Assembly (NCBI GenBank): GCA_964016885.1
Contig: OZ024763.1
Location: 13,702,001 to 13,766,000 of the forward strand
Length of the DNA stretch: 64,000 nucleotides
Direction: 5' to 3'
Source: Eledone cirrhosa
Lineage: Eukaryota
Positions 1,838 through 61,445 of this stretch are shown in pieces. Numbering within the stretch: the stretch's first letter is position 1; every line of letters begins with the position of its first letter. The notes under the pieces are model-generated. The model was not told the DNA's origin. It ran no database searches and worked only from the letters and a program-made list of their open reading frames with translations. The translations under genes and the position numbers were made by a program.

Positions 1838-2012
1838 ACGAAAGAATTGTGGTAAGGAACCAGATGGACCATAATGTACCAAAGTACTCAATACTTAGAG
1901 TAGTAGAGTGGGTAATAGGAACAAGTATGATCCCGACGGCAGAGCTCAAGCCGTTTCGACGGCTATTTCAGTCCAGAAATTTGAGCTCAGCCGTCGGGGT
2001 CCTACTCGTTCC
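1838..2012. mobile_element. (TA)n-embedded fold-back element, 'ggtaaggaacc' family (also 2586-2815, 24331-24487, 26808-26958, 57646-57850, 60557-60747; related 29375-29507)
   Basis: Repeated ~170-230 bp unit with a unique arm containing aagtactc and an inverted duplication of ggaac..gaccccgacggctgagctcaagccgtttcgac. Confidence 0.8.
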
Positions 2013-3525
2013 TATATATATATATATATATATATATTAATATTGTGATTATAAAGACGGTGATAATTGTGGTAGTGGTGATGGTATTGATTGAGGTTTG
2101 GTGTTGTTAGTAGTGGTGGTAGTGATTGTGGTGGTAATCGTTGTGATGTAGTGATTGTGGTAAAGTGCTGCTGTTAGAGGTGGAAGTGGTACTAATGCTG
2201 TTGAGGTCGTTTTCTACCATAATTCCCACCACCATCACAACACAGAATAAAGTTTTATTAGCACGCACTCGCATGTACACACACACACATACAGACATAT
2301 TGAAACATTCAAACACGTGCGCGCACACACACGCACGTATTGAAATATACACACATGCACACACACACACACACATTGAAATATACAAACGTGCGCGTAC
2401 ACACACATTGAAACATACAAACGGGCGCACACATACAGACATGCGCATACATACACATATTGAAACATACCAACGTGCGCGCACACACACTGAAACATAC
2501 AAACGTGCACGCACATACACATACAAAAACGTATTGTGCCCCTATCCAAGCTACACACGCACACCCTTGTTTATATATATATATAACGAAGGAAATGTGG
2601 TAAGGAACCAGGTGGACCATAACGCACCAAAGTACTCAATACTTAGGGTAGTAGAGAGGGTAATAGGAACGAGTAGGACCCCGACGGCTGAGCTCAAGCC
2701 GTTTCGACGGCTAATTCTGGACTAAAAAAAAATTAAAAAAAAATTTTTTTTTTTAGTCCAGAATTAGCCGTCGAAACGGCTTGAGCTCAGCCGTCGGGGT
2801 CCTACTCGTTCCTATTATATATATATATATATATATATATATATATATATATATATGACTATATATATATATATATATATATATATATATGACTCTGAAT
2901 TTGCGTTACGTTTCGCTTTTACTACCCGTCGAAATATATATATATATATATATTAAAATAACAGATTAAAGTTTAAGCAAAGAATCGCCGCTTTCACCCT
3001 TAACGGGGTCTTCTGAAACTAACCCCGTTAAGGGTGAAAGCAGCGATTCTTTGCTTAAACTTTAATCTGTTATTTTAATAAATATTTGCTCTACGGTTCT
3101 TATATATTTGATATATATTTATCCTTATCGAGCCCTCTTTGGATTTTAGTCTTCAAATTTATCATTATTACTCTCTCTCTCTCTCTCTCTCTCTCTCTCT
3201 ATATATATATATATATATATATACACACACACACACATAAGTACACACACATATATGTGTGTGTATGTGTGTATTCACGCAATACAGTAATTCTTATCCC
3301 CAGGGCGTCTATCCATGCTTTCAGAACTACTCTTGTAATAAGATATGTACACATGTACATAAATATACACACATACATCTTCACACAAACACGCATACAC
3401 GCACGCTCATATACAGTCATATATACGCAGGCATGGTTGTGGTGGTTAAGGTGTTCACTCTGTAACCAGGGGTTTTTGGGTTCATTCCCTCAGCGTGGCA
3501 CCTAATATATATATATATATATATA

Positions 3526-3968
3526 CGATATATTAACAAATGGAAACTATATTTATAAAACCATATTTATTTCATTATACATATTTCAAGGACACCAAGT
3601 CATATTATGGTGCGCTTTCATCAGATAAAATATAATATAGAGCAGTTTTATAAATAAATATTGACATACCCTTAAAGAATGTGACCATTTCTATTGGAAG
3701 CTCCCGGATTTCCAACAGAAATGGTCGCATTCTTTTAAGGGTATGTCAATATTTGTTTATAAAACTGCTCTATATTATATTTTATCCGATGAAAGCGCAC
3801 CATAATTTGACTTGGTGTCCTTGAAATATGTATAATGAAATAAATATGGTTTTATAAATAGTTTCCATTTGTTAATATATTGTATTTTTACTCCAATAAT
3901 TTGTTGAGTGCTTTATATCAGTTATAAAAATATTTGCTTGTTGTATCCCAACAATTTAAATATAACTT
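3526..3968. mobile_element. (TA)n-embedded fold-back element, family A (also 4400-4800, 24085-24290, 36648-37063, 38132-38515, 41048-41423, 56917-57328)
   Basis: ~160-bp inverted arms with hammerhead motifs, plus a unique arm carrying gagtgct. Confidence 0.85.
3571..3630 (-). ncRNA. Type I hammerhead ribozyme motif
   Basis: TTTTAT CTGATGA AAGCGCACCA-loop-TGGTGTCCTT GAAA TATGTA TAATGAA. The + copy at 3780-3840 has CCGATGA. Confidence 0.7.
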
Positions 3969-4034
3969 CTCTCTCTCTCTCTCTCTCTCTCTCTCTCTCT
4001 CTCTCTCTATATATATATATATATATATATATAT

Positions 4035-4383
4035 ATTTAAAGGTTAAACAAGGTTCAATGAATAAATCAAAGAATGAGTTTTACAATAGATTGGAAGCAC
4101 TCAACAAGAATGGTTTTCCGGAGTTATTAATATTAATTCAAAATATTAACAAAAATAGACATTCGTGTGATCAAGTATATTTTATTATACATATTTCAGA
4201 GGTACTGAGCTATCTTCAACAGTACGTCCTCATCAGATAAAATAAGATGATGCATGACATACTCTGACATAGTAGATGGTTAAGATTCAGCCATGTTGAA
4301 GATAGCTCAGTACCTCTGAAATATGTATAATAAAATATACTTGATCACACGAATGTCTATTTTTGTTAATATTTTGAATTAAT
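4035..4383. mobile_element. (TA)n-embedded fold-back element, family B (also 6430-6572, 29045-29375, 30055-30460, 60821-61105)
   Basis: Shared unique arm ..ttttacaatagatt..aagcactc..; inverted segment; hammerhead motif. Confidence 0.85.
4180..4243 (-). ncRNA. Type I hammerhead ribozyme motif
   Basis: ATTTTAT CTGATGA GGACGTACTG-loop-CAGTACCTCT GAAA TATGTA TAATAAAAT. Confidence 0.75.
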
Positions 4384-4694
4384 ATATATATATATATATA
4401 TTGAAAGTTATATTTAAATTGTTGGGTTACAACTAGTAAATATTTATAACTGATATAAAAGCACTCAACAAGTATTTGGAGTATATTTACGATATTAAAT
4501 AAATGGAAACTATATTTATAAAACCATATTTATTTCACTATATATATTTCAGGGATATCATATTAACAATATGTTATGCCTTCTTCAGACAAAATACAAT
4601 ATAGACAAAATACAATATAGACAACTTTTTCAAATACAAGTCGATGTTGAACGGTATGTCAAATCTATTTATCTATAAAACTGTCTATATTGTA

Positions 4695-4756
4695 TTTTGT
4701 CTGAAGAAGGCATAACATATTGTTAATATGATATCCCTGAAATATATATAATGAAA
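4695..4756 (+). ncRNA. Type I hammerhead ribozyme motif (inverted partner 4533-4595, - strand)
   Basis: TTTTGT CTGAAGA AGGCATAACATATT-GTT-AATATGATATCCCT GAAA TATATA TAATGAAA. Confidence 0.7.
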
Positions 4757-59349: not shown

Positions 59350-59385
59350 TCTTAACGTTTCGGACGCTAGTCCTTCATCAGAAGA
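59350..59385 (-). ncRNA. Minimal hammerhead motif (Penelope-type)
   Basis: TCTT CTGATGA A GGAC-tagc-GTCC GAAACGTT AAGA: 4-bp stem I, 4-bp stem II, palindromic AACGTT. Confidence 0.8.
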
Positions 59386-59949
59386 AAGAATGAGAAATAA
59401 AATAGATTGAGGGGACGGGCGGGTTGGATGGAATTGGAAAAAATGTCTTTAGATAAAAATAACAGGTCTATTCATGTTGACATCTCTTAATGTGTATGTA
59501 TATATATAATGTGTTTATATATAGATATATTATATATATATATATATAATATATATATATATATATATATATATATAAATATATATAATATATATATATC
59601 ATCATCATCGTTTAACGTCCATTTTCCACGCTAGCATGGATATATATATGTATATATATATATTATATATATATATATATATATATATATATATATATAT
59701 ATATATATATATATATATATATTATATATATTATATATATATATATATAATATATATATATATTATATATATTATATATATATATATATAATATATATAT
59801 ATATTATATATATATATTATATATATAATATATATATATATTATATATATATATTATATATATAATATATATATATATATATATATTATATATATATATA
59901 TAATATATATATATATATATATATACACACATTATATATATATGTATAT

Positions 59950-60490
59950 GGTTCCGTTGTGAGCGCTTTCCCAATGTGTGCAAGGTACAGCACGGCCATC
60001 TGACGAGACTTCTCTCATAATGGATCCACCCAACCCCAAAATTACGGTTCCGATGTGAGCAGATTGTGGTGCGGGCAACTGGCCAGACACTCTTCATAAC
60101 ACCAACCTCATTTTACAGTGTCACACTGTAAAATGAGGTTGGTGTTAGGAAGGGCATCCAGCTGTAGAAATCATGCCAGAATCAGTTCCCGTCCCACCCT
60201 TGCAAGCAGGGAAAGGCGGACGTAAAATGAAATGAAAAATGAAAACGATGATATTATCATCGTTTTTCATCATTTTACGTCCACTTTTCCCTGCTTCCAA
60301 GGGTGGGACGGGAACTGATTCTGGCTTGATTTCTACAGCTGGATGCCCTTCCTAACACCAACCTCATTTACAGTGAGTGCTGGGTGCTTTTTTGCCGTGG
60401 CACCTCCACGACCACTTTGCAGTGGAATTATAGGAACCCCAGTCCCTATCATTTCATTTATACAGCTGAGTAAACTGGAGCAATGTTAAC
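59950..60490. mobile_element. Rearranged, inverted RTE-3'UTR and SINE fragments
   Basis: 60125-60255 is inverted against 60255-60375; hairpin at 60096-60150. Confidence 0.7.
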
Positions 60491-60962
60491 CACTAAGCCA
60501 TGTGCCTCCATATATATGTGTATATATATATATATATATATATATATATATATATAATGAAGGAAATGTGGTAAGGAACCAGGTGGACCATAACGCACCA
60601 AAGTACTCAAAACTTGGGTTAGTAGAGTGGGTAATAGGAACAAGTAAGACCCCGACGGCTGAGCTCAAGCCGTTTCGACGGCTAATTCTGTACAGAATTA
60701 GCCGTCGAAACGGCTTGAGCTCAGCCGTCGGGGTCTTACTTGTTCCTATATATATATATATATATAGAGCCCAATGCTCTAACCACTAAGCCATGTGCCT
60801 CCATATATATATATATATATAACCAAAGTTTAATATGGTTCAATGATTACTCAATGAATATAGTTTTACAATAGATTAAAAGCACTCTACAGGAAAGTTT
60901 TCTGGAGTTATTAACATTCAGAATATTAATAAATGAAGACATTCACATAATCAAAATATATG

Positions 60963-61025
60963 TTTTATTATATATATTTCGAAGGTACTGTGCTGTTTTT
61001 TCAGTACGTCCTCGTCAGATAAAAT
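60963..61025 (-). ncRNA. Type I hammerhead motif, family B
   Basis: ATTTTAT CTGACGA GGA-C-GTACTG/CAGTAC-C-TTC GAAA TATATA TAATAAAA. Confidence 0.75.
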
Positions 61026-61104
61026 ACATGAATTGATGTATGACATACCTCAACTGTCTTGATAGTTCAATTTCAGTATTGGCAGTCAATACTGGAATTG
61101 AACT

Positions 61105-61445
61105 AAAAAAAATCCCTAAAAAGTTGAAAAAATGAAGTATTTCACCTAATGCGGGCCCTAGAAGAGACTGACTAATACATAGTTACAATTTCAAGGAAAT
61201 CGGTCTGATGTAACGCCTCAAAAAACCCCTAAAAGGTTTTTCACCTAATGCAGGCCCTAGGGAATCAAAAAGTTGAATTTATGTGCATAACACTCCCTGA
61301 AACATAAGTAATACACATGTAAAGTTTGAAAAAAATCGGTTGGGTATTTCTCGAGTTTTAGGGATTCAAACTCACATACACACAAAACACACACACACAC
61401 ACACACACACACACACACAGGCAGCCTCAGTTTGATATATATATA
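61105..61445 (+). mobile_element. Possible Helentron/HINE-type non-autonomous element
   Basis: Internal repeats aatttcaaggaaatcgg and aagtttgaaaaaaatcgg followed by (CA)n and a T-rich/TA end, an architecture like DINE-1-type elements. Confidence 0.4.

What the first reader, a model, noticed from the sequence alone, without database searches (positions are those of the whole stretch)
1838..61105. A radiation of short (TA)n-embedded, hammerhead-ribozyme-carrying fold-back elements (Penelope-like non-autonomous system)
Seen: dozens of 150-450 bp non-coding units sit between (TA)n tracts and form at least 8 families with little primary similarity. About 19 motifs read CTGAnGA-hairpin-GAAA-short stem-NUH with a closing stem I: 3571-,4180-,4533-,4695+,5381-,5553+,6757+,23927+,24094+,28876+,29098-,30351+,36895-,38175-,38619+,41182-,41321+,59350-,60963-. 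Among these, core position 7 varies (T/A/C), as tolerated in hammerheads. Many share one layout: an inverted partial copy, the hammerhead, a unique tail, then (TA)n. Established: Penelope-like element pseudo-LTRs carry minimal type I hammerheads with very short palindromic stem III, and often insert with an inverted 5'-truncated segment. Inference: these are microsatellite-targeting, ribozyme-processed PLE derivatives mobilised in trans, at roughly one motif per 3-4 kb. No RT or GIY-YIG ORF for them is visible here.
Basis: partly seen in the sequence, partly recalled or inferred. Interest (0 to 1): 0.9.

Follow-up and report, generated by a model that had tools for sequence, protein, structure and literature searches.

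The report
Ribozyme-bearing stubs of Penelope retrotransposons
The short hammerhead-ribozyme units packed between TA repeats are real, but most are cut-short, often folded-back ends of full-length, protein-coding Penelope-like retrotransposons of known groups; two side findings (a duplicated hairpin that likely marks where copying starts, and a prolific family whose ribozyme is predicted to be dead) are the new part.

Summary
Observation confirmed: all 19 listed type-I hammerhead motifs, plus 3 more, are present (22 against a shuffle mean of 0.27). The units are Penelope-like (PLE) and sit in (TA)n, but they are not a separate non-autonomous system. In this 3.0-Gb genome, 15 of the 19 motifs belong to families that run into RT + GIY-YIG ORFs at 84-100% DNA identity. 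Most are Hydra clade (RWR, DKT, CxCX5C, no CCHH; fold closest to telomerase), some Neptune-type. Uninterrupted 735-742 aa ORFs exist. Fold-backs are made anew at each insertion (29 different junctions in 33), and copies rarely start at the ribozyme cut site. Hydra PLEs in octopus, lone or inverted truncated hammerheads, and two internal RT start sites are all published. Not found in print: (i) abundance of roughly 10^5 motifs (extrapolated); (ii) a duplicated RCTC..GAGY hairpin-like module just 3' of both insertion ends, also visible in the 6 published new Hydra consensus sequences; (iii) a young family with a C3/A8 core mismatch (925 exact copies against 2 canonical), suggesting cleavage is dispensable in vivo. 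New members of a known kind; moderate interest.

The parts
3526..3970 (.). Family A fold-back: short inverted arm (hammerhead 3576-3624 -) plus long arm with tail; 3' end (pLTR) of a Hydra-clade PLE
   Evidence: 95-96% identical to the pLTR of ORF-bearing copies L073/L075
4037..4381 (.). Family B fold-back, hammerhead 4186-4236 -; Hydra-type by relatedness only
   Evidence: 76% to ORF-linked L197; no long copy seen
4404..4799 (.). Family A sister subfamily fold-back, hammerheads 4539-4588 - and 4701-4750 +
   Evidence: 98% link to the 3' UTR of a Hydra ORF in L068
4862..5198 (.). Family J fold-back with tail; hammerhead with a 58-nt stem II region, core decayed in this copy; Hydra-type
   Evidence: 87% link to a Hydra C-terminus in L288, which holds a canonical core
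5281..5642 (.). Family D fold-back, hammerheads 5388-5434 - and 5560-5606 +; Hydra pLTR
   Evidence: 96% to L205, where the tail runs into an ORF start with RMRWK
6611..6827 (.). Family E fold-back, hammerhead 6760-6790 +; Hydra 3' end
   Evidence: 85% link, 220 nt behind a Hydra endonuclease C-terminus in L035
1838..2012 (.). Family F stub (3' half of hammerhead plus tail); Hydra PLE whose full core is CUGAGAAG (A at position 8)
   Evidence: self-BLAST; parent element L261/L262/L265
2586..2815 (.). Family F fold-back
   Evidence: 98.6% to L265
2954..3170 (.). Family P fold-back; hammerhead variant with A at core position 4; Hydra-type
   Evidence: 99% link to a Hydra C-terminus in L332
9549..9760 (-).
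   Evidence: no long parent in 24 loci
13222..13282 (-).
23740..24046 (+). Family G sister: 3' end of a Neptune-type PLE, hammerhead 23929-23956 with 2-bp stem I
   Evidence: 89% to L140
24092..24291 (+). Family A direct 3' stub, hammerhead 24100-24149
   Evidence: 97% to the pLTR of L057; 39 other places among the 40 candidates scored, 94-98%
24331..24486 (.). Family F fold-back
   Evidence: 95% to L265
26808..26957 (.). Family F fold-back
28755..28995 (+). Family G stub: Neptune-type PLE 3' end, hammerhead 28878-28905; very young
   Evidence: 100% to ORF-bearing L139; 30 places at 100% over 166 nt, the window's own copy among them
29045..29361 (.). Family C fold-back, hammerhead 29104-29150 -; followed by an F-related fold-back at 29377-29506
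   Evidence: 78% to ORF-linked L197 only
30055..30463 (.). Family C fold-back with tail, hammerhead 30358-30404 +; inverted local duplicate of 29031-29377
   Evidence: 98.6% duplicate
36646..37066 (-). Family A copy interrupted by another repeat; hammerhead 36897-36945 has lost its 3' stem I arm
   Evidence: 93% to L063
38130..38516 (.). Family A fold-back, hammerhead 38181-38229 -
   Evidence: 96-98% to L075
38560..38740 (+). Family H old stub, hammerhead 38622-38649; tail resembles the Neptune-type G/K ends (by eye)
   Evidence: copies at 78-87%; no ORF link
41043..41424 (.). Family A fold-back, hammerheads 41188-41236 - and 41324-41372 +
   Evidence: 97.9% and 100% to L075/L073
44935..45013 (-). 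Family G-related tail fragment
51745..51870 (-).
56916..57327 (.). Family A-related fold-back; both arms lack the same stretch of the hammerhead 3' half
   Evidence: sequence; 87% to L072
57647..57854 (.). Family F fold-back
   Evidence: 97% to L265
59259..59498 (-). Family K stub: Neptune-type PLE 3' end, hammerhead 59354-59381
   Evidence: 90% links 360-463 nt behind a GIY-YIG domain in L137 and L063
60557..60746 (.). Family F fold-back
   Evidence: 95% to L265
60822..61105 (-). Family C2 stub, hammerhead 60969-61018; Hydra pLTR
   Evidence: 95.6% to L197, where the tail runs into an ORF start with RVRWR

Best explanation
Most of the units are 5'-truncated 3' ends (pseudo-LTRs, each with its hammerhead) of protein-coding Penelope-like retrotransposons, mostly Hydra clade and some Neptune-type, that likely insert by target-primed reverse transcription into (TA)n tracts. 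Shown: full elements are pLTR - 740-aa RT + GIY-YIG ORF - 1.3-1.8 kb UTR - pLTR (hammerhead to hammerhead 3.7-4.0 kb); the Hydra families measured (A, F) have two fixed 3' ends behind the ribozyme cut site (A +50 and +140, F +22 and +97); fold-backs join a long-end arm head to head with a short-end arm. Inferred: the element's endonuclease cuts (TA)n, its RT starts at two internal sites of the RNA, as shown in vitro for a Poseidon PLE, and usually stops within about 150 nt of the ribozyme. The two arms come from one template, either by priming from both target ends or by cDNA snap-back. A short RCTC..GAGY hairpin-like module lies 7-12 nt 3' of each start site and likely positions the RT. Ribozyme cleavage is likely not required for insertion.
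For: Longer copies of family A extend upstream and into an ORF. An RT piece gives 30,105 first-look candidates, 139 scored. 3 of 20 fetched long-frame loci have uninterrupted 735-742 aa ORFs with all motifs checked. Window arms match pLTRs of such loci at 95-100%. Hydra diagnostics of Craig 2021 are present and largely invariant across 93 homologues. The AlphaFold model (pLDDT 89.8) is closest to telomerase TERT. Families F, D, C2, E, J, P link to Hydra ORFs; G and K link to Neptune-type ORFs. Two discrete ends abut (TA)n. Long + short arms in 49 of 60 F and 20 of 27 A fold-backs; arms differ by 3.8% and 3.0% against 7.3% and 11.5% for random pairs; 29 junction types in 33. Module: 6 of 8 automatically defined two-end families, shifted-anchor control 1 of 116; random background about 1%. 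F core: 925 exact A8 copies against 2 G8, with no canonical core within 400 nt upstream. Literature.
Against: Families B, C, H and I (4 of the 19 listed motifs) showed no long parent in about 24 loci each for C, H and I; B had no search of its own. Pfam gave no RT or GIY-YIG hit above cut-off (best E 0.02-0.07) and the PDB sequence search only E about 1. Hydra membership rests on motifs and on reading the published sequences by eye, not on a tree. The module's stem is conserved in sequence, but covariation is not significant (58 of 500 shuffles reach it), so it may be a sequence motif and not an RNA hairpin; 2 of 8 families missed it in the automatic test (one was D, whose long end the script took for the short one). 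Arm similarity could come from conversion between inverted repeats after insertion. The apparent 5' ends of family A may partly reflect subfamily divergence at the 85% cut-off. No cleavage, expression or RT assay was run.
Confidence: 0.88

Rival explanations
1. The short units are a non-autonomous, retrozyme- or SINE-like system: solo pLTR stubs are transcribed, processed by their hammerheads and copied in trans by PLE proteins.
For: Short copies far outnumber long ones (F: 1 of 70 spans the whole hammerhead; 54 of 70 5' ends lie 40-60 nt before the cut site). No long parent seen for B, C, H, I. pLTR-derived retrozymes are reported in animals (abstract and part 1 read), and pLTRs sufficed in trans in a rotifer (passages).
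Against: 29 different junctions in 33 fold-backs; continuous range of 5' extents up to full length in A, G and F; 5' ends rarely at the cut site; units are single or head to head, not head-to-tail hammerhead tandems.
Confidence: 0.1
2. The fold-backs are MITE-like DNA transposons or fold-back elements with TA target duplication, and the hammerhead match is incidental.
For: Inverted arms and TA flanks.
Against: Arms are head to head with unequal fixed ends; extension leads to RT + GIY-YIG ORFs, not a transposase; motif count far above shuffles.
Confidence: 0.01
3. The hammerheads are needed: they cut tandem transcripts to unit length, the RNA is circularised, and RT copies the circle across the re-ligated site, so that copies look uncut. 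Family F would then have an active C3/A8 variant or protein help.
For: Model proposed by Cervera and De la Pena 2014. Most families keep a canonical core (114 of 140 stem-complete motifs). Both start sites lie just 3' of the cut site, and partial tandems with an upstream pLTR are common.
Against: In vitro, catalytic mutants did not impair insertion by a Poseidon PLE, and G8C abolished cleavage. Family F carries A8 in 925 of 927 exact matches. This rival is compatible with the main identification; it differs only in the ribozyme's role.
Confidence: 0.3

Closest known systems
Hydra clade of Penelope-like elements (Craig et al. 2021, PMC8557442), including Hydra-1_Obim from Octopus bimaculoides
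   Same: Single ORF with RW(K/R), DKT, CxCX5C linker, C-terminal GIY-YIG without CCHH, canonical type-I hammerhead near the 3' end, insertion in (TA)n, inverted 5'-truncated partner copy (section 11 and supplement parts 1, 2, 52, 53 read).
   Different: Elements here are longer (3.7-4.0 kb period, 1.3-1.8 kb 3' UTR, against generally under 3 kb), form many families with young copies, have a 75-90 nt tail, and reach an extrapolated 10^5 hammerheads. The terminal module and the A8 core are not mentioned in the passages read.
Neptune-type PLEs
   Same: Families G and K: KGG-type motif, YGRYIDD, C-x4-C-x2-C linker, GIY-YIG with CCHH-type residues, hammerhead with a very short palindromic stem III.
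   Different: One 3' end only in the 6 unbiased G copies; G has a 2-bp stem I; clade assigned by motifs only.
Minimal hammerheads of metazoan PLEs (Cervera and De la Pena 2014, PMC4209133)
   Same: Mostly single motifs, or pairs 100-700 bp apart on opposite strands, read there as truncated PLEs; palindromic stem III; low in vitro activity (parts 1 and 2 of 4 read).
   Different: Counts there were 2,000-9,000 per genome; their core variant was compensated (U3-A8), whereas family F has uncompensated C3/A8.
Poseidon PLE of Anolis, in vitro (Frangieh et al. 2024, PMC11167929)
   Same: Two internal RT start sites bound the optional tail; both DNA strands are cut and extended; hammerhead mutants do not affect insertion (parts 1 and 2 of 4 read).
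   Different: There the sites lie in an AC-rich stem-loop inside the ORF, 30-40 nt apart and not homologous to the target; here they lie upstream of the ORF, 75-90 nt apart, mostly at TA-like letters, each followed by a copy of one module.
Non-LTR retrozymes (Li et al. 2026 preprint 10.64898/2026.07.22.740005; Cervera and De la Pena 2020, search listing only)
   Same: Non-coding, type-I hammerhead, related to pLTRs.
   Different: Retrozymes are defined there as head-to-tail tandems with a hammerhead in every unit; these units are not.

Membership tests
Type-I minimal hammerhead | CUGANGA and GAAA cores, stems I-III, NUH site, above chance | tested here: met
   19 of 19 listed sites; 22 against shuffle mean 0.27; strict 14 against 0.03
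Type-I minimal hammerhead | Self-cleavage as monomer or dimer | not testable with these tools
   No assay; 1 of 4 folds as a monomer hammerhead in silico
Penelope-like element (EN+) | Single ORF with telomerase-like RT and GIY-YIG endonuclease | tested here: met
   735-742 aa ORFs in 3 of 20 loci; fold closest to TERT; GIY-YIG motif invariant in 93 homologues; Pfam alone sub-threshold
Penelope-like element (EN+) | pLTRs from partial tandems, hammerhead in the pLTR, inverted truncated partner, tail at one end | tested here: met
   L073 and L062 layout; two 3' ends and long + short arms
Hydra clade | RWK-like and DKT motifs | tested here: met
   RWR(A) in A and C2, RWK in D, SDKT; W39, D119, K120 invariant
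Hydra clade | CxCX5C linker, no CCHH, CxxC near the catalytic E | tested here: met
   Families A and F
Hydra clade | Insertion into (TA)n | tested here: met
   27 of 40 A and 59 of 70 F copies end at a TA tract
Hydra clade | Short length (generally under 3 kb) | tested here: not met
   Period 3,691 and 3,951 nt because of a long 3' UTR; a tendency in the original description, not a diagnostic
Hydra clade | Placement in an RT phylogeny with reference Hydra sequences | not tested
   Reference sequences were read in the supplement but not brought into a computation
Neptune-type PLE (families G, K) | CX2-5CxxC linker and CCHH-type GIY-YIG | tested here: met
Non-LTR retrozyme | Head-to-tail tandem units, each with a hammerhead, no coding parent needed | tested here: not met
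   Units single or head to head; coding parents found
Non-autonomous PLE derivative | A short unit copied as such (shared 5' end or junction) | tested here: not met
   29 junction types in 33 F fold-backs; not tested for B, C, H, I
MITE / DNA transposon | Terminal inverted repeats of equal ends and a transposase parent | tested here: not met
   Unequal fixed ends, RT parent

The most novel reading that the evidence does not exclude
Hydra-clade PLEs carry a clade-wide, duplicated RNA hairpin (RCUC..GAGY) that sets the two reverse-transcription start sites, a telomerase-like template-boundary signal readable from genome sequence from corals to octopods. This signal, and not the hammerhead, licenses copying: a family with a dead ribozyme made a thousand or more recent insertions, so the roughly 10^5 hammerheads of this genome are passengers.
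Probability: 0.45. Interest if true: 0.65.

Novelty: new member of a known kind. Interest (0 to 1): 0.4.

Why it matters
How PLEs choose their 3' ends, why they form head-to-head fold-backs, and whether their hammerheads matter are open questions; one in vitro system was found in print. This genome offers many young families with uninterrupted ORFs, a defined candidate start signal that can be mutated, and a natural ribozyme-core mutant family. It also warns that short fold-back repeats between TA tracts, easily filed as MITEs or SINEs, can be PLE stubs, and it suggests one of the largest genomic hammerhead collections, if the extrapolation holds.

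Tried and rejected
1) Family J as a second dead-core family (CUGAUCA, 1,862 exact matches against 12 with G): rejected, because the true canonical core lies 58 nt further upstream and that motif is inside loop II. 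The same check on family F found no other core. 2) Family F as another ribozyme class: Rfam gave only two chance-level hits; longer copies showed a hammerhead with long stem II. 3) A search with the T-rich junction of one F copy found nothing; a pattern search for F's tail-to-ORF junction gave 30 loci, none running into an ORF start, so F's second module is unseen. 4) Untemplated palindromic junction letters as proof of snap-back: not claimed, since they may be subfamily variants. 5) Single-sequence AlphaFold model useless (pLDDT 34.6); repeated with an alignment. 6) RNA evidence: no RNA holder listed; contigs of three runs of unrecorded kind were laid and only show that the sequence occurs outside this assembly. 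7) Covariation test of the module stem not significant. 8) Lunse et al. on PLE hammerhead variants was not held and may already list position-8 variants. Searches that found no description of the module or of an uncompensated G8A PLE hammerhead; bioRxiv supplements and subscription papers were not visible. 9) Earlier findings of this scan: none.

Full report
OBSERVATION. The window holds 162 TA tracts of five or more units and many short units between them. A strict type-I hammerhead descriptor finds 14 motifs against a mean of 0.03 (maximum 1) in 200 locally shuffled windows. Rfam listed no hammerhead among the 150 of 329 matches it printed. Only family D folds as a hammerhead in its monomer minimum-energy structure, 1 of 4 folded, as expected for dimer- or protein-dependent PLE hammerheads. 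The six family F units hold only the GAAA-stem III-GUC half.

GENOME CONTEXT. The window is G000:C24:13,702,001-13,766,000 in a 3.0-Gb assembly. The only species-named homologues among the 120 listed for the element protein are from the octopod Argonauta hians (39-41% identity), which points to a cephalopod host (inference). Forty evenly chosen 10-kb stretches gave 4 strict motifs per 200 kb on the six largest contigs and 23 per 200 kb on 20 smaller ones, with shuffle means of 0 and 0.05. Scaled to contig lengths this is of the order of 10^5 motifs, an extrapolation from 27 hits.

WHAT THE UNITS ARE. Family A (8 of the 19 motifs) has longer copies that extend into an AT-rich UTR, and its tail runs into an ORF. 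A 278-aa RT piece gave 30,105 first-look candidates, of which 139 were scored; these are not copy numbers. Of 20 loci picked for long open frames, 3 have uninterrupted 735-742 aa ORFs with all motifs checked. L073 and L062 show pLTR - ORF - UTR - pLTR with periods of 3,691 and 3,951 nt, and window arms match such pLTRs at 95-100%. The protein has RWRA, SDKT, GLYRDD, CxCX5C, VY..YVG and CxxC, and no CCHH. These are the Hydra-clade diagnostics of Craig et al. 2021 (section 11 read), and the key residues are invariant across 93 homologues. Pfam stayed below cut-off and a PDB sequence search gave only E about 1, but an alignment-based model (pLDDT 89.8) matches telomerase TERT best. Families F (39% protein identity to A), D and C2, E, J and P link to Hydra-type ORFs at 85-99% DNA identity. 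G and K link to Neptune-type ORFs. In all, 15 of the 19 listed motifs are tied to coding elements at 84% or more; 3 (families B, C) only through 76-78% relatives and 1 (H) not at all. The supplement of Craig 2021 lists Hydra-1_Obim from Octopus bimaculoides with (TA)n preference and a hammerhead. Cervera and De la Pena 2014 already read single and opposite-strand hammerheads as truncated PLEs. PLEs, some recently active, are reported in Octopus vulgaris without mention of hammerheads or the Hydra clade (part 1 of 3 and a term search).

HOW THE STUBS ARISE. In loci not fetched with the family's own query, 3' ends fall in two classes behind the cut site: +45 to +59 (18 of 40) and +135 to +144 (19 of 40) for A; +20 to +24 (26 of 70) and +95 to +99 (33 of 70) for F. 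Fold-backs pair a long with a short arm in 49 of 60 F and 20 of 27 A cases. The arms differ by 3.8% and 3.0%, against 7.3% and 11.5% for random pairs, and share far more minor letters (52 against 10; 128 against 43). Of 33 F junctions that could be parsed, 29 are different. So each fold-back is made anew and both arms likely come from one template; later conversion is not excluded. 5' ends coincide with the cut site in 2 of 40 and 3 of 70 copies. This fits the in vitro result for a Poseidon PLE: two internal RT starts bounding the tail, both strands primed, ribozyme mutants harmless.

SIDE FINDING 1, THE MODULE. In full elements both ends are followed by similar sequence: TA-rich letters, then RCTC 7-12 nt on, a loop of about 9-30 nt, then GAGY. 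Hand-anchored, it is present at the short end in 8 of 8 Hydra-type window families tested; of the 19 anchors used, 13 met the strict pattern. The background is 1.2% at random places and 0.8% after TAT. An automatic version found it in 6 of 8 two-end families, against 1 of 116 shifted anchors; one miss was D, mis-anchored by the script. By eye a copy is present at an end of each of the 6 new Hydra consensus sequences in the Craig supplement (coral, octopus, sea cucumber, copepod), twice in a row in Hydra-1_Ajap and with wobble or changed pairs in three. The four pairs are formed in 87.5% of cells with one A-U/G-C exchange, but this is not above shuffles (58 of 500). I found no description. Its role as RT start signal is inferred.

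SIDE FINDING 2, FAMILY F. Its full hammerhead has 5-bp stem I, a long stem II, 6-bp stem III and the core CUGAGAAG, that is A at position 8 facing C3. The exact 26-letter pattern occurs 925 times, the canonical one twice. No canonical core lies within 400 nt upstream, and 13 of 14 A8 motifs in 1.9 Mb of (overlapping, query-biased) loci are F. The published natural variant is the compensated U3-A8, and G8C kills cleavage; inactivity of C3/A8 is predicted from the C3-G8 pair, not measured. A similar idea for family J was wrong and is withdrawn.

VERDICT. Real feature, known kind: truncated and folded-back ends of Hydra- and Neptune-type PLEs, here unusually abundant. Interest 0.4, carried by the terminal module, the core-mutant family and the scale.

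Noticed in passing
window 978-1083, 52087-52236, 54032-54087 (+): Candidate exons of a host gene: a signal-peptide-like first exon, a weak CUB-domain match (E 0.015) and a short third exon; the stubs would then lie in introns.
   Followed up: partly
window 29031-29377 / 30131-30477 and 26350-26751 / 28120-28521: Two local inverted duplicates at 98-99% identity, one containing a whole fold-back unit.
   Followed up: partly
window 2954-3170; L332: Family P hammerhead has A at core position 4 (CAGAAGA) with a long stem III.
   Followed up: partly
window 45899-46104, 36693-36899, 41566-41769 and others: An abundant SINE-like repeat family, one copy inserted into a family A stub; and (CAT)n-tailed LINE-like ends at 26350-26751, 29666-30029, 62001-62261. 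Class names are from recall, not from a call.
   Followed up: no
L021:2-2892, L024:8978-9571, L139, L170, L266, L268, L272, L285, L302: Further Hydra- and Neptune-type ORFs from other families lie in the flanks; PLE stubs of different families pile up in the same TA tracts.
   Followed up: partly
L271-L310 (40 evenly chosen 10-kb stretches): Hammerhead density is about six times higher on the smaller contigs (23 against 4 per 200 kb) while TA tracts are about twice as dense (550 against 291).
   Followed up: no
window 56916-57327: Both arms of this fold-back lack the same stretch of the hammerhead, which fits copying from one template or later conversion.
   Followed up: partly
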